Origin: a virus
Taxonomy: Duplodnaviria; Caudoviricetes
DNA length: 60,601 nt
Virus record (IMG/VR): IMGVR_UViG_3300030012_003336
Coordinates: 1 to 60,601 of that record
Reading direction: 5' to 3' (one strand)
The position numbers and the translations under genes were made by a program. The notes beneath the pieces are model-generated. The model had not been told where the DNA came from. It made no database searches and saw only the letters and a list, made by a program, of their open reading frames with translations. The stretch's first letter is position 1; every line of letters starts with the position of its first letter. Below, one piece after another: positions 3,001 to 18,683 of this stretch.

Positions 3001-6000
3001 TTCAACGTGTCGAGCGCAGCAGGTGCTGAGTCAACAAGATTGCTTACCTGGGTATTAACAAAAGACTGCGTAGCGTAACTAGGATCAGAATCAGGAACCC
3101 AAGACGGCGTAACGTCCGCTCCTGCCTCTATGCCATCCAGCTTCGCATGATCTGCTGTCGTAAAATTTTCGTCAGTCTGTGAAGCGACAACGAAGTCGAG
3201 CGTTCCGTCTCCATCTTGATAAGAGACTGTAATACCACTTTCGGTATTACTGCTGACCATGCCCCCCACGATGTCCTGAACCTGCTCGTTAGACAGTTGG
3301 GTGTTGGTATCTGTGGATGAAATCGTTCCGTCAGATCCAATAGATATGTTTGATCCCGCAGACAATGCAGCGACTACGTTGGCGGTATCCGTAACATCTG
3401 CACTGGCTTCTATAGCGTTGAGCTTAGAATGATCATCGTCAGTAAATACGTTAGAATCTGTAGCGGCGTCAACCAACGTGCGGATCTCACTGGCCGTTTG
3501 ATCAGCCGTAGCGTTAGCTTCTATACCGTCAAGCTTTGCATGATCTGCTGTCGTAAAGTTTTCGTCAGTCTGAGACGCAACAGAGAAGTCGATTGTTCCG
3601 TCTCCATCTTGGTAAGAGACGGTAATACCACTCTCTGTGTTACCAGAAAGCATCCCACCCACAATATCCTGAACCTGCTCGTTAGATAATTGGGTGTTGG
3701 TATTAGTAGCTGCTATGGTTCCGTCAGATCCAATAGATATGTTTGATCCTGCTGACAAAGCAGCAACTACGTTCGCGGTATCAGTCACATCGGCTGATGC
3801 CTCAACGCCAGACAGTTTTGTTTGCAGTGCGTCAGTAAACGCATTCGTGTCGCTGTTGCTCTCGTAGAGCGTTTTTATTTCACTGGCTGTCTGGTCAGCG
3901 GTAGCGCCGGATTCAATCCCGTCTAGCTTTGCATGATCTGCTGTCGTAAAGTTTTCGTCAGTCTGGGACGCAACAGCGAAGTCCAACGTGCCATCGGCAT
4001 CTTGATAAGTTACTGTGATTCCACTTTCAGTGTTACTACTGACCATTCCACCCACGATGTCCTGAACTTGCTCGTTAGACAGTTGAGTGTTGGTATCAGT
4101 AGCTGCAATGGTTCCGTCAGATCCAATAGATATGTTTGACCCAGCAGACAAGGCGGCGACTACGTTGGCCGTGTCGGTTACATCTGCTGAAGCTTCGATT
4201 CCATCCAGCTTTGCGTGATCCGCTGTTGTAAAATTTTCGTCAGTTTGAGATGCGACAGTGAAGTCAATCGTCCCATCAGCATCTTGATAAGCTACGGTGA
4301 TTCCGGTTTCGGTATTCCCCGAGAGCATCCCACCAACGATGTCCTGCACTTGCTCGTTCGAGAGTTGAGTATTCGTGTCGGTAGATGCGATAGTCCCGTC
4401 AGTTCCTATCGAAATATTAGAACCTGCGGATAGCGCCGCCACTACGTTTGCTGTATCGGTGACATCTGCCGAGGCTTCAATGCCGTCGAGCTTTGTGTGG
4501 TCGGCGTCAGTAAATACGTTAGAATCGGTAGCGGAATCGACTAAGGTTCGTATCTCGCTGGCCGTCTGGTCGGCTGTTGCCCCCGACTCGATTCCGTCTA
4601 GTTTTGAGTGATCAGCCGTTGTGAAATTTTCGTCAGTCTGGGACGCAACAGCGAAGTCGATTGTTCCATCTCCGTCTTCATAGCTGACGGTGATTCCACT
4701 CTCAGTGTTTCCAGACAGCATTCCACCAACAATATCCTGAACCTGCTCAGTCGTTAGCTGTGTGTTAGTGTCGGTAGAGCTAATCGTTCCGTCAGATCCA
4801 ATCGATATGTTTGAACCTGCTGATAGCGCAGCGACTACGTTTGCCGTATCGGTTACGTCCGCTGAAGCCTCAATACCGTCTAGCTTTGCTCCGTCTGCAC
4901 TAACGTCCCGCCCGTCTACAGTCTGACTGCCGGACATGACTATGTTGCCTGTCATGGTCCCGCCAGCAAGAGGCAGCTTGGTAGCGATGCTATTAGTTAC
5001 AGTTGTCGAGAAGTTTGCGTCGTCACCAATCGCAGCAGCTAATTCGTTCAGCGTGTCTAATGCACCCGGTGCAGAATCCACTAGGTTACTTACTTGTGTG
5101 GTGACAAACGATTGGGTTGCATAACTAGGGTCAGCGTCAGGAACCCAAGTGGGTGTTACGTCTGCTCCTGCTTCTATGCCGTCTAATTTAGCATGATCGG
5201 CAGTGGTAAAATTCTCGTCAGTCTGTGAAGCGACAGCGAAGTCGATTGTCCCATCGCTGTCTTCATAGGTGACTGTAATTCCAGACTCAGTGTTGCCAGA
5301 CAGCATTCCACCAACGATGTCCTGAACCTGCTCATTCGATAGTTGGGTATTCGTGTCTGTAGCCGCTATGGTTCCGTCAGTTCCTATCGAGATGTTTGAA
5401 CCTGCCGATAATGCTGCGACCACGTTTGCGGTGTCCGTAACATCTGCCAACGCTTCAATGCCGTCGAGCTTCGCATGGTCAGCCGTTGTGAAATTCTCAT
5501 CAGTCTGAGACGAAACAGCGAAATCGATTGTTCCATCGGCATCTTGATAAGTGACTGTTACCCCGCTCTCAGTGTTGCCCGTGAGCATACCACCCACGAT
5601 GTCCTGAACCTGCTCGTTCGAGAGTTGTGTGTTGGTATCTGTCGCAGAGATAGTTCCGTCCGTGCCGATGGAAATGTTCGACCCAGCGGACAATGCGGCT
5701 ACCACGTTGGCCGTGTCAGTTACATCTGCCGCCGCCTCGATGTTGTTTAATTTATTGTGGTCAGCATCCGTGAATACGTTGGAGTCGGAAGCGGCCTCAA
5801 CTAACGTGCGGATCTCCGCAGCAGTTTGATCAGCAGTTGCATTATCCTCAATGTTGTCGAGCTTTGCGTGATCCGCTGTTGTGAAGTTCTCGTCAGTCTG
5901 GGACGCAACAGCGAAGTCGATTGTCCCGTCACTGTCCTCATACGTGACTGTGATTCCTGATTCAGTGTTGCCCGTGAGCATACCACCCACGATGTCCTGA

Positions 6001-8972: not shown

Positions 8973-10307
8973 TTATACCACAGAGGCAGTGTCAGTATCC
9001 CTCTTGAAGATAACTACGTAACCAAACTGAGTCTTAATCGGCTTGGATGCGCTAGCCATGATTCCCCGGAAGAAACCGATGTTTCCATCAGGATTATTTG
9101 TGGCGTCCGGGATGTTTCGGAACGCGAAGTCTCCAGTGTATTGGATGGGGTCAAACGTCATTCCAGGTGCGCTAGTAATAGGCTGTGGAACAAGTGACTC
9201 CATGACATCATCAACCAGAACGTAAGCGGCCTCAAACTCGGCACTTTCGTATGCTGGGTTTACGATAACTTTGTTACCGCTGACGATGTAGGGCTCAACC
9301 TTGACAAGGGTGTTCGCCTGTCCCGAACGACTCTTGTAGCGGGTGGTGAGATCATCAACCAAGTGGTAGAACCCACGGAAGGACTTCTCAACTCCAAGGG
9401 GTGCGATCAGCTCGCCAACCTTAGCGTTGTTGTAACGGATGTCGTCCCGGATCTTATCGTCCTCAGTAAGGAGCTGATGAGATGCCTCAGAGGAAAGAAC
9501 AACCGAAAAGATCGGGCGTCCGTTCTCGCGTCCGTAAGCCTTGAGACCTGCACCAGCGCGAATGAGCTGGAAGTAGATCTTGTCCATGACTGCGTTGGAG
9601 ATGTTGCCGCTAGGCTCAAGTTCTCCAGTTCCGTCGTCGTCGTCGTCGAGGTCTCCCGTCTTAACGGTCGTTCCTGCTTGAGCCAAACCATCGGAGTCGT
9701 CGATTACGAAGGACTGCTTGTTTTCGCCATCAGTAATGAAGGTCGTGCTCGCGGACTTACAAAGAACACAGTTGTCAGCCAAACGGTCGTACTCGTCACG
9801 ATAACGATTCTCCCAAGTGTTGCGGACAGACTCTTTCATCAGGTCCATGATGGCCCGGAGCTGCTCGGCGCGGTGAGCTGCGTAACGCAGGTCTTCGACG
9901 TTAATCCGAGGAGACTCAACGACCGCCTTACTCAGGGAGTAAGACTTGAGCACCCGTGTGAAGTCCAGTGTAGCTTTCTTCTCATCGGTAAGACCGGCGC
10001 TAGCCGTGGTCTGACCTGCGGTGAAACCAATGTCACTTCCTCCGGCAGAACCGGTTTGAAGTGCCGTCCAGTCAACACCAGTATTTCCACTAGCAAGACT
10101 GCCGCCATTCTTAATAGGAAGAGCGCGGTCGTAAATCAGCGTGTTGAGTTGATAGCCCATTCCCTCAGGGAATGCACTCTGTCTAATAAGGTCAATCCAC
10201 GGAGATGTGTGGAGGGTTGCCTTGTGAATGTCGGAACCGATACGATTAGCTTCCTGAGTCAGGATGTTGTTAATCGCAGCGGTACTATCTGTAAATGATC
10301 CAGCCAT
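8973..10307 (-). CDS. Major capsid protein
   Basis: 444 aa; follows the acidic coiled-coil scaffold gene; has its own promoter and a strong terminator; portal-scaffold-capsid order. Confidence 0.8.
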   Translation of the reverse strand: MAGSFTDSTAAINNILTQEANRIGSDIHKATLHTSPWIDLIRQSAFPEGMGYQLNTLIYDRALPIKNGGSLASGNTGVDWTALQTGSAGGSDIGFTAGQTTASAGLTDEKKATLDFTRVLKSYSLSKAVVESPRINVEDLRYAAHRAEQLRAIMDLMKESVRNTWENRYRDEYDRLADNCVLCKSASTTFITDGENKQSFVIDDSDGLAQAGTTVKTGDLDDDDDGTGELEPSGNISNAVMDKIYFQLIRAGAGLKAYGRENGRPIFSVVLSSEASHQLLTEDDKIRDDIRYNNAKVGELIAPLGVEKSFRGFYHLVDDLTTRYKSRSGQANTLVKVEPYIVSGNKVIVNPAYESAEFEAAYVLVDDVMESLVPQPITSAPGMTFDPIQYTGDFAFRNIPDATNNPDGNIGFFRGIMASASKPIKTQFGYVVIFKRDTDTASVV

Positions 10308-10545: not shown

Positions 10546-11746
<1,201 letters not shown>

Positions 11747-11769
<23 letters not shown>

Positions 11770-12957: not shown

Positions 12958-13024
12958 ACTACACCCACTAACTAAGTTTTAGCTTTTCGTTCAAGATTTT
13001 TATTCTAAAAAGCGAAGATATCCC

Positions 13025-13243
13025 ATGAGTAAAGCTAGCGCACCCATCAACGTAGCAAAATACTGGACTGAAATTCAAAGGGTCTCCACCAAAAAGGTAA
13101 TCGAGCTAAACCTTCAAGAAATAAAGGACGCCGCCAAAGAAGCTCAAAAGGTAAAACCTAAGCCAGCTCTAGCGTTAAACCTCAGTCGTCGTATCGAGGA
13201 ATTGGCTCAAGAAACTGAACTCCTTGTTCGTCGGCTACGTTAG
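13025..13243 (+). CDS. Hypothetical protein
   Basis: 72-aa helical ORF filling the gap; 3' end overlaps the convergent gene by 62 nt. Confidence 0.5.
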   Translation: MSKASAPINVAKYWTEIQRVSTKKVIELNLQEIKDAAKEAQKVKPKPALALNLSRRIEELAQETELLVRRLR

Positions 13244-13556
13244 CACGCTCCTCCATCAGGAGCCCCTTACCCAGAATCATGTAGTTGATAATGTCGTTAA
13301 AGGCATCCTCAACACTCTCGTCCGGAACCTGTAACTCCGAATCGTTCACAAACGAACGAATCCGCTGAATCTTATCCAGCACCCGCATCAGGAGTCCTAA
13401 TACCGGATGCACGCCCAAGACAGTGCTGCTTTTAAAATTGGCAAATGGATCTGTGGCATTTTTGCCGCCAGTATAATCCGAGTTTTTGGTTTGCATGATT
13501 TGCTTGCATTCAATGCAAGTCGAGTCATGCAGGGCTAGAAGTTCTTTAGAGGTCAC
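13182..13556 (-). CDS. DUF1599/Nmad1-like all-alpha nucleotide-pyrophosphatase-fold protein
   Basis: KNSDY..DPFANF..GLLMRVLDKIQRI..DESVEDAFNDIINY pattern. Confidence 0.75.
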   Translation of the reverse strand: MTSKELLALHDSTCIECKQIMQTKNSDYTGGKNATDPFANFKSSTVLGVHPVLGLLMRVLDKIQRIRSFVNDSELQVPDESVEDAFNDIINYMILGKGLLMEERANVADEQGVQFLEPIPRYDD

Positions 13557-15756
13557 CTTGGCGGAACTCTAACGCCGCTTTGGCGTCACGTATAGCCATT
13601 TCTTGGTCATGTTTTTTCTGCTTAATAGCCATGTCCAACTCGGCTTTCTCTTGGGCAATCTGCATCTTTATCTGATGCTCGGCCAGTTTAGCGTCAGGCT
13701 GCTGCGGCATCTGCCCACCTTGAGCTTGAGCCGCTTCCGCTTGCTCCCGCTGAATCTTCTGAGCCGCTTTCGCAGTGTTGTTGATGACCTCTTCGGCAAA
13801 GTTCAACGTCTGCTTGGTCTGACCAACAATGCCCTCGAGGGCCGGATCGCCCGCTGCGAACTGAACTGTCTGACTGATATGCTGGTAGAATGCTTGCAAC
13901 ACCGGCAACGACTGCATCGGATCTGCCTCGCCAACATTCAACTGCTCCAAAAGCTGATTCAATACCGGAACATGAACCTCGAGGTGGGTGCCATGTAACT
14001 CGTTAGCGACAACAGGAACTTGTTGCCCGGCCATCAACTGCTGATTCTCGAAGAACGCAATCTTAACATCTACCGTCGGACGCTTCTGAACTTCCGCTGG
14101 CACATACCGGTCGGCAAGATCATGCCCAACACGGGTGGAAACAATGTCCCTGGTAAGATTGCGACGGCCGACATCGTCGAACTGGCCGCTGATCCCCTGA
14201 AGCTCGCGCAAGGCAACCATCCTATTGGCGTGGCTACCGTTACCAATAGAACGGACAGCCTTGGTGCGGTCAACATCCAGCGTCTGAATAAACTCTTTGG
14301 AAACTCCACGGGCTTCGCACCGCGCAAAGAAATCTTTAACCGCCGCGTCAGGTCGCTTGGTAGTAGCAATCCGACGAACAATCTCGCGGAGAAGACGCCC
14401 CCAGCTCGAATAGAACAAGTTCAGGCTAGCCCCAGACAAACGGGTCGTGACATCCATGTCCGCCACAACCTGCATCTGATTCCGGTATGGGGAACTCTGA
14501 GTCGGGCCGTAGGTGCTGACGGTGTCGGTATTGAGTTGCAACTGCTGAGTAAGGTCCTGCAAGGCAGGCTGAACCGCAGTTCCAAGATTCGGGATCGCTT
14601 TCTCGACGATTTTGACATTCGGGGACATCACCGCGTAAGCCCCATAGAATGTAAACTGCAACTCGTCCAAAGAACGCTGGTTCTCCGGCTGAATCATTAT
14701 TGCAGAAGCCAGCATGGCCCCGTCGATCTGCTGGCAGCGGAGACGGTTGCTCGTCTGGACATGGGAAAAGATACGCTGACCTAGACCCCGGATAGAATGA
14801 TAAGTGCCATTCGACCCCACGCCGTAAGTAAACATGACATACGCCTGCTCTGCTTTTTGATAGCGGGATACTTTCTTATACAGAAAGTCTTTGGGGCTGT
14901 CTTCGGCCGCGATGTAATGGCTAACACTACCGTCCATCTCCTTGACCCAGAAGTGCAGGACTGCAACCGAGGGATTCTGGATCCCGGTATACAGATCATT
15001 GTTCTTCAACTCGGCTTGGACTTCCTCGTAATCCCGATACGTCTGACGCTGCCGCGTAGTCGCATTACTTTTTATGACACGTTTTACCTCCTCAACATTC
15101 CAGCCCACCTTAGCCGCAGCCTTAGGGTCCTTGATGTATGAGTGCAATTCGTGCAGCAGGTAGTTTCGGCGACCAATCGCAATATCAATTGCCTCCTCAC
15201 TAGATGCTGTTTGTCTAGGAATCAGGATGTCTGTAAAACCGCCGACTCGAAATCGCCAGTCATCCGGCGAATCAAAGTAAGCTACAGCTACCCCGTGTTT
15301 AATAAATGTTGTGCAAAGCCGTAAATAGGCGCTGTGGAACTCGGGCCAACTCCGCATCAAGTGCGTGAGTTCTTCTGCAACGATTTCCTCATTCGGTTTA
15401 ATTTCGCTTCCTTCACCCTGAGTTCCCTTAACTTCAACGAGTCTCTCCAAAGAAGAATACAAGTCAACGTAAGCAGACAGAGAGATATCCAAGAGTCGTT
15501 GTGCATCTCCAAAATTTAAATTTGTTTTGAGTCCTTGCCCACTAGTCTGGAGCTGAGTCGCATTGTACGGAGCAGCTCCGTCAAACATTGCATCGATCCG
15601 TGCGCGGTTGATAGCAGATTTTTCATCCGCTCGCCGTAGGGTTCCAAATATGGAAATCGCGCTTTTTACGTCTTTCAGACGGGTTTCAACTGGGGCCCCC
15701 GCATCATCAAGCGATCCAAGATTTAAACCGTCGAGATAACTCGGGGTGTCACTCAT
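13546..15756 (-). CDS. Portal protein
   Basis: ~736 aa from ATG 15756; helical with Q-rich coiled-coil C-terminus (P22-like barrel); first gene of the head module; upstream TTGACT-17-TATGAA-7-ATG. Confidence 0.75.
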   Translation of the reverse strand: MSDTPSYLDGLNLGSLDDAGAPVETRLKDVKSAISIFGTLRRADEKSAINRARIDAMFDGAAPYNATQLQTSGQGLKTNLNFGDAQRLLDISLSAYVDLYSSLERLVEVKGTQGEGSEIKPNEEIVAEELTHLMRSWPEFHSAYLRLCTTFIKHGVAVAYFDSPDDWRFRVGGFTDILIPRQTASSEEAIDIAIGRRNYLLHELHSYIKDPKAAAKVGWNVEEVKRVIKSNATTRQRQTYRDYEEVQAELKNNDLYTGIQNPSVAVLHFWVKEMDGSVSHYIAAEDSPKDFLYKKVSRYQKAEQAYVMFTYGVGSNGTYHSIRGLGQRIFSHVQTSNRLRCQQIDGAMLASAIMIQPENQRSLDELQFTFYGAYAVMSPNVKIVEKAIPNLGTAVQPALQDLTQQLQLNTDTVSTYGPTQSSPYRNQMQVVADMDVTTRLSGASLNLFYSSWGRLLREIVRRIATTKRPDAAVKDFFARCEARGVSKEFIQTLDVDRTKAVRSIGNGSHANRMVALRELQGISGQFDDVGRRNLTRDIVSTRVGHDLADRYVPAEVQKRPTVDVKIAFFENQQLMAGQQVPVVANELHGTHLEVHVPVLNQLLEQLNVGEADPMQSLPVLQAFYQHISQTVQFAAGDPALEGIVGQTKQTLNFAEEVINNTAKAAQKIQREQAEAAQAQGGQMPQQPDAKLAEHQIKMQIAQEKAELDMAIKQKKHDQEMAIRDAKAALEFRQGDL

Positions 15757-15845
15757 CAACAAGTTCATACCTTTTTGAAAGCGTATAGTCAATTATGTAG
15801 TTTTATCTGGACACTCAGACAGCGCCTGAATAAAAGAATCAAGTT

Positions 15846-16067
15846 ATGAAAGGTTATTTCCTATACATGCACTTAATTATGGTCGCAGGATTCTTCACAG
15901 TTTCTTGTTCTACAGCAGACCTCGGCGGACAAGTTCCACTGCCGTTCACCTCGCCATCTACTAGTGCAAAGCTGGACCTCGAACTCCGGCCTATGCCACC
16001 AAAATTCTGTATCGGGCTTGATCTAGTTCCGACTGAGCCCGAAGCAGGGACTACAGCAGACAAGTAG
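15846..16067 (+). CDS. Small putative lipoprotein
   Basis: MK plus hydrophobic stretch plus TVSC lipobox-like motif; TGGACA-17-TAAAAG upstream. Confidence 0.6.
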   Translation: MKGYFLYMHLIMVAGFFTVSCSTADLGGQVPLPFTSPSTSAKLDLELRPMPPKFCIGLDLVPTEPEAGTTADK

Positions 16068-16137
16068 GGAATACTGTGCGGGGGAACCCTACTTAGAAAC
16101 AGACTGCCAGGCAACCAGTCCCCCCGCACAACTCTTT

Positions 16138-16215
16138 ATGCCAAAGCATACAACAAAAAAGCCTAAGCCATATGGTGGTGGTAAGCCGAAGCCGATGGTT
16201 AAACGGCCCAAATAA
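16138..16215 (+). CDS. 25-aa Lys/Pro-rich peptide
   Basis: MPKHTTKKPKPYGGGKPKPMVKRPK*, ends just before the terminator. Confidence 0.5.
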   Translation: MPKHTTKKPKPYGGGKPKPMVKRPK

Positions 16216-16223
16216 ATAAAATC

Positions 16224-16259
16224 AAGCCCGCCTTGGAGTAGCTGCCGAGGCGGGCTTTT
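16224..16259 (+). terminator. Intrinsic terminator, probably bidirectional
   Basis: AAGCCCGCCTTGG/CCGAGGCGGGCTT stem, TTTT on +, A-rich tract on the other side, between convergent genes. Confidence 0.8.
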
Positions 16260-16277
16260 CCGTGACACTCAAGGTTT

Positions 16278-16481
16278 TCACGGGGGTGGGTTGGGGGAAC
16301 CTCTAGTATAAATCGTGTTGCCCGAAGGGTGCGAATTCTGGGGGTCGTAGATGTGTTGTTCTTTCTTCACATTGGTGAAACTCTCGTAAACTCGAAATGC
16401 GGCTTCGATTACAAGGCCGGTCAAAACCATCGTAATCGCCACAACCACAAGGGTTTCCATGAATGTGGACGCCTTTTTCAC
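16278..16481 (-). CDS. Type IV prepilin-like mini-protein (67 aa)
   Basis: GTG start: MKKA|STFMETLVVVAITMVLTGLVIEAAFRVY; basic leader, Glu at +5, hydrophobic helix; extended -10 TGnTACTAT 8 nt upstream. Confidence 0.6.
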   Translation of the reverse strand: MKKASTFMETLVVVAITMVLTGLVIEAAFRVYESFTNVKKEQHIYDPQNSHPSGNTIYTRGSPNPPP

Positions 16482-16565
16482 GCCCTCGCATAGTAACACG
16501 GGCGGTATAGGCAAGAAAGACACCATTAGGGTGAGGGCATCGACACAACCTAGCAAAGTGTCGAT

Positions 16566-17039
16566 TTAAGGGCCTATATTCGACAGGTCCCCCCAGACCT
16601 CATGCAAAAGTTTGTCAACCCGAGCAAAAACTTGCCGTTTGTCGTAGCCCCTCAGGCGGACGCACTCATGTCCTTGGTGATCAACGGCAGTTACAACGTG
16701 TATACGTCCCGCGTTGGGACCCCGCTCATGGGGCTCTATACAGTAAACAAGACCATAGACAGTAATCGCATATCGGGTATTTGAAGGAATTACCCGTGCC
16801 TTTTCTGTGTGTAAGACATAATCCACAGACAACTCGGGCAATTTTTCGTCGTCGATAGCATCGTGACGAAATTTAAATGATTTCCCATTTTTATCTACAA
16901 CGGCTGTTCTTATGGCACCCCCGATATAACTAGGCGTTAACGCGCGGCCCGTCTTCAAGTTCATAACAAGACCGGTCTCTTCACAGAGGGCATAGTGGTT
17001 TGTGTCTGGAACACGCTTAAATCCGGTCGGTATCTGCAT
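16566..17039 (-). CDS. Tandem NUMOD4-like DNA-binding protein without nuclease domain
   Basis: Two copies of (V/I)P....YA....GLV; second ends CVRL..RVDKLLHEVW; no HNH motif. Confidence 0.55.
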   Translation of the reverse strand: MQIPTGFKRVPDTNHYALCEETGLVMNLKTGRALTPSYIGGAIRTAVVDKNGKSFKFRHDAIDDEKLPELSVDYVLHTEKARVIPSNTRYAITVYGLVYCIEPHERGPNAGRIHVVTAVDHQGHECVRLRGYDKRQVFARVDKLLHEVWGDLSNIGP

Positions 17040-17188
17040 ATCGCTACTCAAAAAGTTTTCTATAGACTATATATCTTATATTCCAGAATAAAAGATATAT
17101 CTATATTAGAAAAGTTTTCATTCTGGGTTTTGCATAAACACGCATCCACCTTAGGGCTAATCCCTGTTCAACGCCTTTTATTTTAACG

Positions 17189-17443
17189 CTATTCAGCGGT
17201 AGAGTCGCTTGCCTGCGCTTTTTTTAAATCTTGGTATCTCTCGGCTCTACGCTTCAAAAGACGCTCTCTGTTCTTGAGGTAATACTCGCGGTTGTATTTT
17301 AGCCTGCGCTCTATTTTTTCTGGGTCAACCGCCTCCTCAATTTGCCGTTTACGGTTAATCTTGTCTTTGTTTTTCTGGTAGTATTTACGCTGATACTCGC
17401 ACCTGGCCTGCTTATTTCTGTCGTAATAGGATGGCTGCTCCAT
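17189..17443 (-). CDS. Small basic protein with YYxxN repeats
   Basis: YYDRNK, YYQKNK, YYLKNR; TTGACA at 17477-17472. Confidence 0.7.
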   Translation of the reverse strand: MEQPSYYDRNKQARCEYQRKYYQKNKDKINRKRQIEEAVDPEKIERRLKYNREYYLKNRERLLKRRAERYQDLKKAQASDSTAE

Positions 17444-17613
17444 TCCTCAATTAATGGAATTGATGGTATTTTGTCAAATTTTTTCATACACACTGATATA
17501 TATGAGTAGCGTGCCGCAGAAAAACGGCAGGGTGGGGGGTGGCGTGTCAACACGTAGCACACAACACACTGTATCCAGCTCGCTTCGCTCGTCGTATTTT
17601 TTGGGGGGAAAAG

Positions 17614-17917
17614 CTACCCGGGCCCGGGGCCCGGCAGCATGTTTGCAATCTACCCGGGCCCGGAGGCCCGGCAGCAGGCCACAGGCTCCCGGCTCCCGGT
17701 TCCCGGGTTCCGGCTCCCGCCATCATCCGCCGGTTGCACGGTTCCGGGTGCCGGATTCCGGGGGCCGGGATCATTTTACTAGGACCCCGCACCCCCGTGG
17801 AACGCGTGGAACAATCCAGCCTTTCCCGTGGAACACGCGTGGAACCCGGAGCCCGGAACCCGGAAAAAAGATTCAATTGTTCAATCCTTTTTACTTGTCA
17901 AAGGTGCCGGTTGCCGG
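17614..17917. repeat. CCGG-rich non-coding array
   Basis: ~20 CCGG in ~300 bp; direct repeat CTACCCGGGCCCGG(G/AG)GCCCGGCAGCA at 17614 and 17650; CGTGGAAC x4. Confidence 0.9.
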
Positions 17918-17923
17918 TAGCTT
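17895..17923 (+). promoter_or_regulatory. Early promoter (leaderless type)
   Basis: TTGTCA-17-TAGCTT, 8 nt before ATG 17932. Confidence 0.7.
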
Positions 17924-17931
17924 CCAACCGT

Positions 17932-18162
17932 ATGCAATTCTTACCCACTATTGAAGTCACGGGCGCGGTTTCCCTCGCCCTCAGTAAAGGCGCTTTAACA
18001 CTTCAGCCGGGCCAATGGATCCGGATTCACAAGGATTCCCCGCCCTCCCGTTTCGTACGCGTGAAGCCGAATGGAGTGATTTACGCAGTCCACCCGCACG
18101 GGAAAGAAGGCGTATCAAATGAGCGATTCCAAGAGGCTCTCACCTGCTGGCCCGTAAAGTAG
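17932..18162 (+). CDS. Early hypothetical protein (76 aa)
   Basis: MQFLPTIEV... start assigned from the promoter; the upstream ORF extension is low-complexity repeat. Confidence 0.7.
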   Translation: MQFLPTIEVTGAVSLALSKGALTLQPGQWIRIHKDSPPSRFVRVKPNGVIYAVHPHGKEGVSNERFQEALTCWPVK

Positions 18163-18185
18163 TAACCCCACACCATCCAAACAAT

Positions 18186-18683
18186 ATGAAAAGACAATTC
18201 CACATTACCACCGGCCGCAATCGCTCTGTTGAGAGAGTTTGGATTGAGGGCTCTGCCAATCTTCCCGGCTGGCGTCCGGGAGATAGATTCGACGCGCTAT
18301 TTCACAAGGGCGGTTTGATCTACCAAAAAAACCCCGCCGGAAAGCGGAAAGTTTCCGGAAAGAATGGAGAGCCCGTTCTGGACACGAACTCGAAAAAACT
18401 CGCGACGGTTTGCGGGTTCTCTACCGGTGACCGGCTCCCGGTGCAAGTCTCCCCGGATCATATCGCGATAGGGTGCCCTGATCAGTTAAACCGCTGGCGC
18501 GGGATAACGGAAACCGTAGACAGCGTCACGGCCGCCCGCAATCTTGAAAAGCTCCGGGCAATCGATCCCGCGCACGCGGCAAGGATTGAGGAACTCGAGT
18601 TGCAGCTTGCCAATTTGAAAGCCCTACGAGCGAACGCTCCGCGCGGGTGGGATATGGCTGAAACCTCAACCCCCAACGGATAG
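18186..18683 (+). CDS. Early protein, AbrB/SymE-like fold
   Basis: RVWIEG..GWRPGDRF and GFSTGDRLPVQV, two swapped-hairpin-like halves. Confidence 0.5.
   Translation: MKRQFHITTGRNRSVERVWIEGSANLPGWRPGDRFDALFHKGGLIYQKNPAGKRKVSGKNGEPVLDTNSKKLATVCGFSTGDRLPVQVSPDHIAIGCPDQLNRWRGITETVDSVTAARNLEKLRAIDPAHAARIEELELQLANLKALRANAPRGWDMAETSTPNG

What the first reader, a model, noticed from the sequence alone, without database searches (positions are those of the whole stretch)
16278..16498. Phage-encoded type IV prepilin mimic
Seen: from GTG 16481 the ORF reads MKKA|STFMETLVVVAITMVLTGLVIEAAFRVYE followed by only ~35 polar residues, with an extended -10 (TGTTACTAT) 8 nt upstream, the spacing of the other leaderless promoters here. 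Established: class III signal peptides have a basic leader, G/A at -1, Glu at +5 and a hydrophobic helix; the KKAFTLIELLVVIAII..L.GL form is abundant in Verrucomicrobia and Planctomycetes. Inference: a headless pilin, with non-canonical Ser at +1, that could poison pilus/T2SS assembly or occupy prepilin peptidase and so give superinfection exclusion. It also hints at a PVC-group host.
Basis: partly seen in the sequence, partly recalled or inferred. Interest (0 to 1): 0.85.

Follow-up and report, generated by a model that had tools for sequence, protein, structure and literature searches.

The report
Headless pilin-like gene in marine phage
An uncultured marine phage carries a small, optional gene whose product looks like only the signal and membrane stalk of a bacterial type IV pilus subunit, probably to tamper with the host's pili or secretion fibres, an idea already in print for other phages and still untested.

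Summary
GTG 16481 to stop 16278 (minus strand) is a real 67-codon gene with its own extended -10 (16498-16490) and a terminator hairpin (16257-16211). Relatives show 14 synonymous and 0 non-synonymous codon changes in 31 codons. In three loci stop codons lie just upstream of the GTG, and the internal ATG is lost in several copies.

The protein fails Pfam N_methyl (11.5 bits against 21.2). However, a profile of its phage family matches prepilin N-termini in exact register: Ala4 on -1, Glu9 on +5. hhalign gives 95.5% probability and score 41.3, against at most 21.5 in 61 controls. In two PVC-group MAGs that carry related phage contigs, all 19 profile matches fall on N_methyl sites. Glu+5 is invariant in 20 of 20 family members.

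There is no head domain: the model is one helix (2-43) plus a disordered tail. The gene is accessory, present in 2 of 25 near-complete related phage records.

Processing by prepilin peptidase and any exclusion function are inferred, not shown. Truncated PilA-like proteins of virulent Pseudomonas phages are already in print (PMC12952977). This scan noted the same family on two other genomes and similar stubs in at least 15 genomes. I rate it a new variant of a known kind.

The parts
16490..16498 (-). Extended -10-like promoter element TGTTACTAT, 8 nt before the start codon
   Evidence: Read. The equivalent block (TGGTATGAT, GGGTATTAT, TGGTATTAT, TGATATGAT, TGTTACTAT, GGGTATTCT) sits 7-8 nt before the start in all 7 related loci, while the rest of the upstream DNA does not align. 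The generic -35/-10 scan found no promoter here, so no -35 is claimed.
16278..16481 (-). 67-codon gene (GTG start, TGA stop) for the headless pilin-like protein
   Evidence: Translation. Homologues. Purifying selection and broken alternative frames. Start fixed by upstream stops in L067, L068 and L071.
16470..16481 (-). Four-residue basic leader M-K-K-A, with Ala4 at the predicted -1 position
   Evidence: hhalign and HMMER put Ala4 on the Gly/Ala -1 column of prepilins. The -1 column is Ala in 14 and Gly in 3 of the 17 family members that have an N-terminus.
16407..16469 (-). 21-residue hydrophobic tract S5-I25, interrupted only by Glu9 (the +5 position; codon 16455-16457)
   Evidence: Sequence. 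Glu9 is the only invariant column in 20 diverged members. Mature pilin chains of the PDB align with their residue 1 on this +1 position.
16353..16478 (-). Single long alpha-helix, residues 2-43 (pilin alpha1-like stalk)
   Evidence: AlphaFold2 on alignment A4 gives helix 2-43, with pLDDT 96-97 over residues 11-30.
16281..16352 (-). Polar, Pro/Gly-rich tail, residues 44-67, predicted disordered; no globular pilin head
   Evidence: pLDDT 49-56, no secondary structure. The profile search of 1.84 billion representatives found only proteins of 52-94 aa.
16263..16302 (-). 40-nt DNA element covering the last 7 codons and the stop of the gene; it also exists without the gene
   Evidence: Present with at most 6 substitutions in 6 of 65 related loci. 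Four of these (L004, L007, L009, L054) have no pilin-like gene before it.
16211..16257 (-). Intrinsic-terminator-like hairpin (10-bp G+C-rich stem) followed by a U-rich run
   Evidence: RNA fold of 16290-16205 gives -33.7 kcal/mol, z -3.36, and 0 of 200 shuffles fold as well. The simple scan missed it because the loop exceeds 8 nt.

Best explanation
The gene encodes a 'headless' type IV pilin-like protein. It has a 4-residue basic leader (MKKA), a 21-residue hydrophobic stalk carrying the signature Glu at +5, an amphipathic continuation of the helix, and a short disordered tail instead of the globular pilin domain.

Shown:
- It is a real, selected gene with its own promoter-like element and terminator.
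- It is optional cargo, inserted at a variable slot of an uncultured marine phage lineage.
- Its family resembles prepilin N-terminal domains specifically and in register.

Inferred:
- The protein inserts into the host inner membrane with the N-terminus inside.
- It is recognised, and perhaps cut after Ala4, by the host prepilin peptidase.
- Through its stalk it joins or blocks the host's type IV filament machinery (pilus, T2SS pseudopilus or a related fibre).
- The likely benefit to the phage is keeping other phages, or its own progeny, from adsorbing to an already infected cell.

My odds: real gene about 0.97; pilin-derived N-terminal domain about 0.8; substrate of or binder to the prepilin peptidase or assembly platform about 0.5; exclusion as the selected function about 0.3. 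The host is probably a PVC-group bacterium, on weak evidence.
For: Gene reality and start: (14 synonymous and 0 non-synonymous changes in 31 codons against L070; stops upstream of the GTG in 3 loci).

Pilin likeness:
1. A family profile without the one canonical-looking member (A4, 19 sequences) against all PDB sequences gives 10 hits at E<=10. Seven are pilins or pseudopilins; the top one is Geobacter PilA-N 'geopilin domain 1' at E 0.008. With that member included (A3), 17 of 20 hits are pilins, with best E 5.5e-5. Mature chains start on the predicted +1 column.
2. The same A4 profile, searched in six frames over two whole MAGs (3.2 and 7.8 Mb), gives 19 matches at E<=1. All 19 lie on sites that Pfam N_methyl finds independently.
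3. hhalign of A4 against 44 prepilin N-termini from those MAGs gives probability 95.5%, score 41.3, 40 columns, with A4 on -1 and E9 on +5. Controls: reversed target 16.5; 30 column shuffles at most 11.8; 30 shuffles within the hydrophobic block at most 21.5.
4. Glu+5 is invariant in 20 of 20 members at 27% mean column identity. The -1 column is only Ala (14) or Gly (3). The +2 column is only Thr or Ser.
5. NCBIfam pilin models are the commonest weak hits: ComGE in 10 of 20 members (window protein E 3.7e-4), ComGD in 9 of 20.
6. The published PilFind motif rule (PMC3244431, section 15) is met by 16 of the 17 members that have an N-terminus.

Ala at -1 is normal in the candidate hosts: 12 of 47 N_methyl sites, or 10 of 44 distinct sequences, in the two MAGs. 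Both MAGs encode Peptidase_A24.

No head.

Accessory cargo:
- 2 of 49 related virus records searched carry it, and 2 of 25 that are at least 90% complete.
- In L067 it sits at another place in the gene order.
- L009 has a tRNA-Trp in the same slot.

Precedent: a phage minor pilin gives exclusion, and ~60-residue PilA stubs occur in six virulent Pseudomonas phages (PMC12952977, sections 17-18 read).

One 160-nt contig of a metatranscriptomic library matches 16327-16485 without a difference. This shows presence in an RNA library, not proof of transcription.
Against: - The curated models reject it. Pfam N_methyl gives 11.5 bits against 21.2 (E 0.24), ComGE 20.5 against 49, and TIGR02532 is not listed for it at E<=1. 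Only 1 of 20 family members (P0033) passes N_methyl.
- The leader has 4 residues. The review I read gives 6-26 and calls the final Gly 'absolutely critical' for processing (PMC4471445, passages).
- The +1 residue is Ser/Ala/Thr/Lys/Met in 16 of the 17 members with an N-terminus (Phe only in P0033), and +6 is an invariant Thr in the 19-member family A4 (Leu only in P0033). In 47 host-candidate prepilin sites, +1 is Phe 39, Leu 5, Val/Ile/Tyr 1 each, and +6 is never Thr (one regex mis-hit corrected by eye). The protein may therefore be a poor or non-substrate.
- The bare PilFind motif is weakly specific here. 12 of 370 six-frame ORFs of the window pass, and 0-10 per shuffle of the window pass.
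- The ESM Atlas feature search gave no pilin cluster (best score 0.85, below the tool's lead threshold).
- Foldseek found nothing, as expected for one helix.
- The host is unknown. The PVC link rests on two binned MAG contigs, and one member of a distant subfamily is filed under a Flavobacteriaceae MAG.
- No pilus, secretion or peptidase gene is in the phage. No experiment exists for any such stub.
Confidence: 0.55

Rival explanations
1. It is an ordinary single-pass inner-membrane protein of the phage, for example an injection-blocking or envelope-modifying exclusion protein. It has nothing to do with pilins, and the N-terminal likeness is convergent or fortuitous.
For: It scores below every curated pilin cut-off. 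It has a 4-residue leader, Ala at -1, a non-aromatic +1 and Thr at +6, unlike the 47 prepilin sites of the two MAGs. The Atlas neighbours are unnamed small membrane proteins. The loose PilFind motif also hits junk ORFs.
Against: The similarity depends on residue order, not composition: hhalign scores 41.3 against at most 21.5 in 61 controls. In 11 Mb of six-frame sequence the profile found only prepilin N-termini (19 of 19) and no other membrane helix. An invariant Glu five residues after an invariantly small residue is not expected of a plain anchor. One subfamily (P0026) has Pro at exactly +22; I recall this as a typical pilin position.
Confidence: 0.2
2. It is a complete minimal pilin rather than a spoiler. 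It is cut and then polymerised by the host machinery into phage-directed filaments, or built into host filaments as a working subunit. Short pilins such as Geobacter PilA-N, and the pilins of the archaeal virus SNJ2, work this way.
For: The best PDB matches are the 61-90-residue geopilins, which are filament subunits. SNJ2 pilins use the host machinery to form the dominant filaments of the host (PMC12426801, abstract only). The conserved tail motifs (D-P-x-N-S-H-P-S-G-N in most close members) suggest a selected exposed part.
Against: No partner subunit and no assembly gene lies in the phage. The tail is predicted disordered, and its last 7 codons belong to a DNA element that exists without the gene. 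The family departs from host pilins at +1 and +6. Pfam Flp_Fap is not listed even at E<=10.
Confidence: 0.12
3. It is an uncleavable decoy. It binds the prepilin peptidase or the platform protein but is not processed, and so starves host pilins of maturation.
For: It has a short leader, Ala at -1 in the window copy and a non-canonical +1. The review states that the -1 Gly is critical for cleavage, while Glu5 is dispensable for processing but needed for assembly (PMC4471445, passages).
Against: Ala at -1 is common in the candidate hosts' own prepilins (10 of 44 distinct sequences), so it need not block cleavage. Three family members have Gly at -1. A decoy would not need an invariant Glu+5.
Confidence: 0.1
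4. It is a holin or other lysis-timing membrane protein.
For: It is small, has one transmembrane helix and has a charged, polar C-terminal part.
Against: It is absent from 23 of 25 near-complete related phage records, so it is not a core lysis function. It is a stand-alone unit between a putative HNH-like gene and the 748-aa conserved gene, with no lysin recognised beside it. It has no holin family hit in Pfam, NCBIfam or PHROGs.
Confidence: 0.04

Closest known systems
Truncated PilA-like proteins ('P-PilA', N-terminal ~60 residues) in six virulent Pseudomonas phages, noted by Sztanko et al., Cell Rep 2026 (PMC12952977, section 17 read)
   Same: A phage-encoded protein of about 60 residues consisting of the pilin N-terminal helix without the head. 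It is carried by phages that are not obviously temperate. The proposed roles are incorporation without phage-binding sites, or inhibition of pilus assembly. Both are untested.
   Different: There is no sequence relationship. tblastn of this protein and of P0033 against 50,697 GenBank phage records found nothing meaningful. The family here departs from host pilins (Ala -1, Ser/Ala/Thr +1, Thr +6) and fails Pfam N_methyl, whereas the published ones were found by similarity to PilA. Table S3 of that paper was not visible to me.
Prophage FimU (P-FimU) of F10-like Pseudomonas phages (same paper, abstract and discussion read)
   Same: A phage copy of a type IV pilus subunit, used against competing phages. 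This is the experimentally shown precedent for the principle.
   Different: P-FimU is a full-length, functional minor pilin with extra loops, expressed from a prophage. Here there is only a stalk, in a phage with no sign of lysogeny examined, and no experiment.
Geobacter PilA-N ('geopilin domain 1'; PDB 7tgg, 9egp, 2m7g)
   Same: These are the best solved-structure matches of the family profile (E 5.5e-5 to 0.0015 with A3; 0.008 to 0.11 with A4). They are naturally short pilins made of little more than alpha1, and the alignment covers leader, +1 to +5 and about 25 further residues.
   Different: Geopilins are cellular, pass the canonical motif (Gly -1, Phe +1) and work with a partner, PilA-C (recalled). 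Similarity to the phage protein is marginal and limited to the N-terminal 30 residues.
Prepilin-type N-terminal cleavage/methylation domain proteins of PVC bacteria (Pfam PF07963, TIGR02532)
   Same: hhalign gives 95.5% probability in register with 44 such N-termini from the Opitutae and Blastopirellula MAGs. Ala at -1 occurs in both.
   Different: The bacterial proteins are 141-520 aa open frames with C-terminal domains, apart from three short ones (47, 48 and 53 aa), two of which are cut by contig ends. They have Phe or Leu at +1, and Leu/Val/Ile/Met at +6 in all but one. The phage protein scores 11.5 bits against the cut-off of 21.2.
Type IV pilins of the archaeal provirus SNJ2 (PMC12426801, abstract read)
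   Same: Virus-encoded pilins that use the host's secretion and assembly machinery.
   Different: These are an archaeal host and full pilins that form the dominant filaments and serve another virus as receptor. There is no evidence of filament formation here.

Membership tests
Class III signal peptide / type IV prepilin (definition in Berry and Pelicic 2015, PMC4471445, passages read) | Hydrophilic leader of 6-26 residues | tested here: not met
   The leader is M-K-K-A, 4 residues, fixed by stop codons just upstream in L067, L068 and L071. It is basic in all 17 family members that have an N-terminus. The review notes that leaders can be shortened in some systems.
Class III signal peptide / type IV prepilin | Leader ends in Gly (-1) | tested here: not met
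   It is Ala4 in the window copy. Across the family it is Ala in 14 and Gly in 3 of 17. Ala at -1 is found in 12 of 47 N_methyl sites of the two PVC MAGs, so the rule is looser in the candidate hosts.
Class III signal peptide / type IV prepilin | About 21 predominantly hydrophobic residues directly after the cleavage site | tested here: met
   S5 to I25 is 21 residues, with only Glu9 charged and the next charge at E26. It is predicted helical with pLDDT 96-97.
Class III signal peptide / type IV prepilin | Glu at +5 | tested here: met
   Glu9 is +5. It is the only invariant column in 20 members and aligns to the invariant Glu of 44 MAG prepilins.
Class III signal peptide / type IV prepilin | Cleavage and N-methylation by a prepilin peptidase (Peptidase_A24) | not testable with these tools
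   The enzyme is present in both candidate-host MAGs.
Pfam PF07963 N_methyl / TIGR02532 | Score at or above the curated cut-off | tested here: not met
   N_methyl gives 11.5 bits against 21.2, E 0.24. TIGR02532 is listed for 2 of 20 members and not for the window protein. Only P0033 passes N_methyl, with 26.6 bits.
Pfam PF07963 N_methyl / prepilin N-terminal domain (homology, not curated membership) | Profile-profile similarity in register, above composition controls | tested here: met
   hhalign of A4 against A6 gives 95.5%, score 41.3. Controls give 16.5 (reversed), at most 11.8 (30 column shuffles) and at most 21.5 (30 within-helix shuffles). All 19 genome matches lie on N_methyl sites.
PilFind rule (Imam et al. 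2011, PMC3244431, section 15 read) | [GAS]-x4-[DE] within 35 residues, then 14 uncharged residues; at most 350 aa; one N-terminal TM | tested here: met
   A-STFM-E followed by 14 uncharged residues. 16 of 17 members with an N-terminus pass. This is weak evidence: my re-implementation omitted the TM test, and 12 of 370 six-frame ORFs of the window also pass.
Full-length type IV pilin | Globular C-terminal alpha-beta head packed on alpha1-C | tested here: not met
   The model is helix 2-43 then 24 disordered residues. All 14 profile hits among 1.84 billion representatives are 52-94 aa.
   There is no match in the window at E<=10, and it is not among the PHROG hits of the protein at E<=10.
NCBIfam NF041013 ComGE (competence minor pilin) | Score at or above the equivalog cut-off | tested here: not met
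   20.5 bits against 49, E 3.7e-4 over residues 2-45. This is a significant but sub-threshold likeness, not membership.
Flp/Tad (type IVc) pilin, Pfam PF04964 | Match to Flp_Fap (a G-x4-E-Y motif, as I recall it) | tested here: not met
   Flp_Fap is not listed at E<=10 for the protein, nor among families matched by any of 20 members at E<=1. +6 is Thr, not Tyr.
Holin | Core lysis gene next to an endolysin, with a holin family match | tested here: not met
   There is no holin family hit. The gene is present in only 2 of 25 near-complete relatives. No lysin was recognised among the neighbours scanned.

The most novel reading that the evidence does not exclude
The invariant departures from host prepilins (small polar +1, Thr +6, Glu at +22 in place of the usual helix breaker, 4-residue leader) may mark a purpose-built 'chain-terminator' subunit. 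On this reading the host peptidase and platform accept it, and it is loaded into the growing type IV filament, but it cannot be extended or retracted. A few copies would then shut down all type IV filaments of a planctomycete or verrucomicrobial host. That would be a new, generic, stoichiometric way for a virulent phage to disarm pili and secretion. It would also be the first handle on what the hugely expanded prepilin-like protein sets of PVC bacteria do during infection.
Probability: 0.15. Interest if true: 0.75.

Novelty: new variant of a known kind. Interest (0 to 1): 0.48.

Why it matters
Type IV pili and related fibres are common phage receptors and are central to motility, adhesion, DNA uptake and secretion. 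A phage minor pilin has been shown to protect lysogens. Truncated 'pilin stubs' in virulent phages have only been noted, never tested.

This case adds three things:
- A separate, phage-only family that curated models miss. It is traceable by an invariant Glu+5 and a Thr+6 conserved in all but one member.
- An abundant but uncultured marine phage lineage, probably of PVC-group bacteria.
- Clean genetics: its own promoter-like element and terminator, presence and absence among close relatives, and a defined insertion slot.

It is a compact 67-residue test object for asking how little of a pilin is needed to enter or jam the machinery. It also suggests that such stubs are more widespread than sequence annotation shows. 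It does not open a new category.

Tried and rejected
- GenBank phages: blastn of 13000-18500 found no match. tblastn of the protein gave 8 records, all at E>=2, which is chance. tblastn of the 748-aa and 720-aa proteins and of P0033 found no match. There are therefore no cultured relatives and no host from that route.
- Bacterial genomes: a scan with the A2 pattern found 25 pattern hits, none a relative. There is no cellular parent gene.
- tRNA and Rfam over the whole window: nothing. The permissive Rfam search of 15780-16320 gave only two chance-level rows.
- Pfam on the giant ORFs and PHROGs on the neighbours gave no useful names. My early guess that this is an N4-like phage, and that the 748-aa gene is the portal, is unsupported. 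I call it only 'the 748-aa conserved gene'.
- Foldseek against the PDB found no match, and the ESM Atlas gave no informative neighbour. Neither is informative for a single helix.
- The generic promoter scan found no -35/-10 pair and missed the terminator.
- I first took the conserved stretch at 15880-16060 for a structured RNA. The consensus fold is weak (-6.1 kcal/mol), and conservation has 3-nt periodicity with one open frame, so it is a small protein gene.
- RNA libraries: only Logan contigs were available, with shares of 0.10-0.17. The one contig over the gene ends 4 nt upstream of the GTG, and nothing covers 16504-17100. Contig ends and uncovered parts cannot show a transcription start or silence, so I draw nothing from them.
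- Complex prediction was not used. The host is unknown, and enzyme-substrate or filament pairs are poor cases for it.
- The second structure job, the remaining fold searches and the 'longer'/'shorter' modes of the search for homologous proteins were not used. One search has no length filter and already covers longer forms.
- Supplementary Table S3 of PMC12952977, which lists the phage PilA-like groups, could not be seen.
Full report
WHAT IS THERE

The window is one complete-looking IMG/VR virus record of 60,601 nt (CheckV 100%, linear).

On the minus strand, GTG at 16481 opens a 67-codon frame ending at TGA 16280-16278. It reads a 4-residue basic leader (M/V-K-K-A), then S-T-F-M-E-T and a hydrophobic run to I25. 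An amphipathic stretch (E-A-A-F-R-V-Y-E-S-F) follows, then 32 mostly polar, Pro/Gly-rich residues.

TGTTACTAT lies at 16498-16490, 8 nt before the GTG. After the stop comes a 10-bp G+C-rich hairpin with a U-rich tail at 16257-16211. Its fold energy is -33.7 kcal/mol, z is -3.36, and 0 of 200 shuffles fold as well.

IS IT A GENE, AND WHERE DOES IT START?

A search of 5.8 billion clustered proteins found 18 clusters, all from marine metagenomes and all at E<=9e-11. A pattern scan of IMG/VR found 7 loci.

Over the 31 codons from +1, the window and L070 differ by 14 synonymous and 0 non-synonymous codon changes. The window and L071 differ by 17 and 5. The two divergent copies, L072 and L073, keep the frame. 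Almost every other frame on either strand is broken by stops in the relatives; each of the five alternative frames is interrupted in at least four of the six related copies, including the overlapping Cys-rich frame.

Gene callers chose three different starts, but the DNA settles it:
- In L067, L068 and L071 a stop codon lies 1-3 codons before the GTG, which is then the first start codon.
- The internal Met8 is Thr in L067/L068, P0008 and P0011, and Leu in L072.
- Upstream of the start, the 8 aligned copies share nothing but a TGnTAnnAT-like block 7-8 nt away and a G-rich trinucleotide. This fits a transcript with almost no leader.

The generic -35/-10 scan finds no promoter, so only the extended -10 is claimed.

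IS IT PILIN-LIKE?

By curated models, no.
- Pfam N_methyl gives 11.5 bits against a gathering score of 21.2 (E 0.24).
- NCBIfam ComGE gives 20.5 against 49 (E 3.7e-4), and UpsA gives E 0.013-0.02.
- PHROGs gives nothing below E 0.1.

By family-level evidence, yes.

A profile of 13 close and divergent copies (A2) was searched against 1.84 billion representatives. It found 14 proteins at E<=1e-3, all 52-94 aa. This widens the family to 20 sequences with 27% mean column identity, in which Glu9 is the only invariant column (A3). Among the 17 members that have an N-terminus:
- the residue before the hydrophobic tract is Ala (14) or Gly (3);
- a Lys or Arg precedes it in all of them;
- +2 is only Thr or Ser.

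One member, P0033, looks canonical and is the only one to pass N_methyl, with 26.6 bits. A cluster mate of it is named a prepilin-type cleavage/methylation protein by its source. I therefore left it out of the test profile (A4, 19 sequences).

Three tests used A4:
- Against all PDB sequences it gives 10 hits at E<=10. Seven are pilins or pseudopilins and three are variants of one O-methyltransferase. The top hit is Geobacter PilA-N at E 0.008. With P0033 included, 17 of 20 hits are pilins, the best E is 5.5e-5, and mature chains begin on the predicted +1 column.
- Searched in six frames over two whole MAGs (3.2 and 7.8 Mb), it gives 19 matches at E<=1. Every one lies on a site that Pfam N_methyl finds independently, out of 47 such sites at E<=0.01. 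No other membrane helix in 11 Mb matched.
- hhalign against 44 distinct prepilin N-termini cut from those MAGs (A6) gives 95.5% probability and score 41.3 over 40 columns. Ala4 falls on the -1 column, Ser5 on +1 and Glu9 on +5.

The hhalign controls were as follows:

| Target | Score |
|---|---|
| Real A6 | 41.3 |
| A6 reversed | 16.5 |
| 30 random column shuffles | at most 11.8 |
| 30 shuffles confined to the hydrophobic block | at most 21.5 |

The likeness therefore depends on residue order, not on being a hydrophobic helix.

The published PilFind rule (PMC3244431, section 15) is met by 16 of 17 members. My re-implementation lacked the TM step, and 12 of 370 six-frame ORFs of the window pass it, so this adds little.

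WHAT DOES NOT FIT

A review of type IV filaments (PMC4471445, passages) makes three relevant statements:
- The leader is 6-26 residues long and ends in a Gly that is critical for processing.
- The following 21 hydrophobic residues are interrupted by Glu5.
- Glu5 is dispensable for cleavage but needed for homopolymer assembly.

Here the tract is exactly 21 residues with Glu at +5, but the leader has 4 residues and ends in Ala.

In the two MAGs, Ala at -1 is common: 12 of 47 sites, or 10 of 44 distinct sequences (one regex mis-hit, L114, corrected by eye). Ala is therefore unlikely to be disqualifying in such hosts.

However, their +1 is Phe 39, Leu 5, Val/Ile/Tyr 1 each, and their +6 is never Thr. 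In the phage family +1 is Ser/Ala/Thr/Lys/Met in 16 of the 17 members with an N-terminus (Phe only in P0033), and +6 is an invariant Thr in A4 (Leu only in P0033). The family is thus a consistent variant of the motif, not a member by the curated rules.

NO HEAD

AlphaFold2 on A4 gives one helix, residues 2-43 (pLDDT 96-97 in the core), and a disordered tail. No longer relative exists at E<=1e-3 in the representative library, which has no length filter.

The last 7 codons and the stop lie in a 40-nt DNA element (16302-16263). That element recurs in 6 of 65 related loci, four of which lack the gene. The very end of the protein may therefore be dictated by DNA rather than by protein function.

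CONTEXT

The gene lies between a conserved 161-codon gene (16566-17051; weak HNH-endonuclease PHROG hit, E 0.0046) and a small conserved gene (15854-16129). The 748-aa conserved gene (13546-15792) lies beyond that.

The 748-aa gene has 65 relatives in IMG/VR. It has no Pfam, PHROG or GenBank-phage match.

The pilin-like gene is optional:
- 2 of 49 related virus records searched carry it, and 2 of 25 that are at least 90% complete. L019 was not held, and L052-L066 were not searched.
- In L067 it sits, together with the small conserved gene, between homologues of 10546-11769 and 8973-10307 instead.
- In L071 it has other neighbours.
- In L009 a tRNA-Trp occupies the same slot, directly before the 40-nt element.

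It behaves as a self-contained cargo unit. This argues against a core role such as lysis.

A more distant subfamily (P0026 type) is also on phage contigs that share the homologue of 13182-13556.

HOST

Nothing cultured is related. The only two genome records with the 748-aa gene are contigs of 18 and 29 kb. They are binned into MAGs titled 'uncultured Opitutae bacterium' and 'Blastopirellula sp.'.

Both MAGs hold many N_methyl sites (18 and 29) and Peptidase_A24. This is two of two for the PVC group, but it rests on binning only. A member of the distant P0026 subfamily is filed under a Flavobacteriaceae MAG on a 3.3-kb contig.

MECHANISM

Shown: a selected, separately controlled small gene whose product has a prepilin-like signal and stalk and no head.

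Inferred, in order of decreasing confidence:
1. It inserts with the N-terminus inside, through the basic leader.
2. It is recognised by the host prepilin peptidase and the assembly platform.
3. It either enters filaments as a bare stalk or blocks their growth.
4. The selected benefit is that no further phage adsorbs to the infected cell.

The alternatives are weighed in the rival list. They are a plain membrane protein, a true minimal pilin that forms filaments, an uncleavable peptidase decoy and a holin.

WHAT IS KNOWN

Two searches led to Sztanko et al. 2026 (PMC12952977). I read its outline, section 17 and the discussion.
- Prophage FimU copies are built into the P. aeruginosa pilus and block tip-binding phages.
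- In passing, the paper reports that one of four PilA-like groups in GenBank phages consists of the N-terminal 60 residues only, in six non-temperate Pseudomonas phages.
- It proposes incorporation or assembly inhibition as possible roles.

The archaeal provirus SNJ2 encodes pilins that use the host machinery (PMC12426801, abstract).

The principle and the 'stub' idea are therefore in print and untested. The present family is unrelated in sequence to anything in GenBank phages and to phrog_10597.

This scan has met the same family on two other genomes (first-reader notes only) and comparable stubs in at least 15 genomes.

VERDICT

This is a new variant of a known kind, of moderate interest.

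Noticed in passing
window 15854-16129 (-), core 15900-16037: A small conserved protein gene lies between the pilin-like gene and the 748-aa gene. A core of about 137 nt is kept at 69-81% identity in 16 related loci. Conservation shows 3-nt periodicity, and one open frame (…SVGTRSSPIQNFGGIGRSSRSSFA…) runs in the direction of the neighbours. The consensus RNA fold is weak. Contigs from 4 metatranscriptomic libraries of one study cover 15869-16112. In L067 it travels with the pilin-like gene to a position ahead of the homologue of 8973-10307. No family is known.
   Followed up: partly
window 16263-16302 (-); L004, L007, L008, L009, L021, L054 at about 5477-5602: A 40-nt element (it begins AGGTTCCCCCAACCC…) overlaps the 3' end of the pilin-like gene. 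It is kept, with at most 6 substitutions, in 6 of 65 related loci. Four of these have no such gene before it, and in L008 it lies 350 nt downstream of the gene, behind an extra ORF. It may mark the boundary of a cargo slot or be a regulatory site.
   Followed up: partly
L009:5381-5456 (-): A tRNA-Trp (anticodon CCA) sits in the slot where the window has the pilin-like gene, directly before the 40-nt element. The window itself has no tRNA.
   Followed up: partly
window 16566-17051 (-): The 161-codon gene upstream of the finding is conserved in relatives (40-49% identity in L070 and L072). Its only family hit is a weak one to an HNH-endonuclease PHROG (phrog_959, E 0.0046). A homing-type nuclease next to a variable cargo slot would make sense, but this is not shown.
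   Followed up: no
window 13546-15792 (-) and L082, L083: The 748-aa conserved gene has 65 IMG/VR relatives but no Pfam, PHROG or GenBank-phage match. Its only genome-collection relatives are contigs binned into an Opitutae MAG and a Blastopirellula MAG. L083 is the same 28,849-nt contig as IMG/VR locus L066.
   Followed up: partly
L074-L078 (IMG/VR contigs of 40-527 kb): Canonical-looking prepilin N-termini occur in other, mostly very large, viral contigs: 62-74% identical to residues 1-25 of P0033, and one at 36% over 92 residues. Pilin-like genes therefore recur in unrelated viral records.
   Followed up: no
L079:3152-3376, L080:6001-6222: A distant subfamily of the same small protein (P0026 type; Lys at +1, Pro at +22, different tail) lies on A+T-rich phage contigs that share only the homologue of 13182-13556 with the window. 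One cluster member is filed in NCBI under a Flavobacteriaceae MAG on a 3.3-kb contig.
   Followed up: partly
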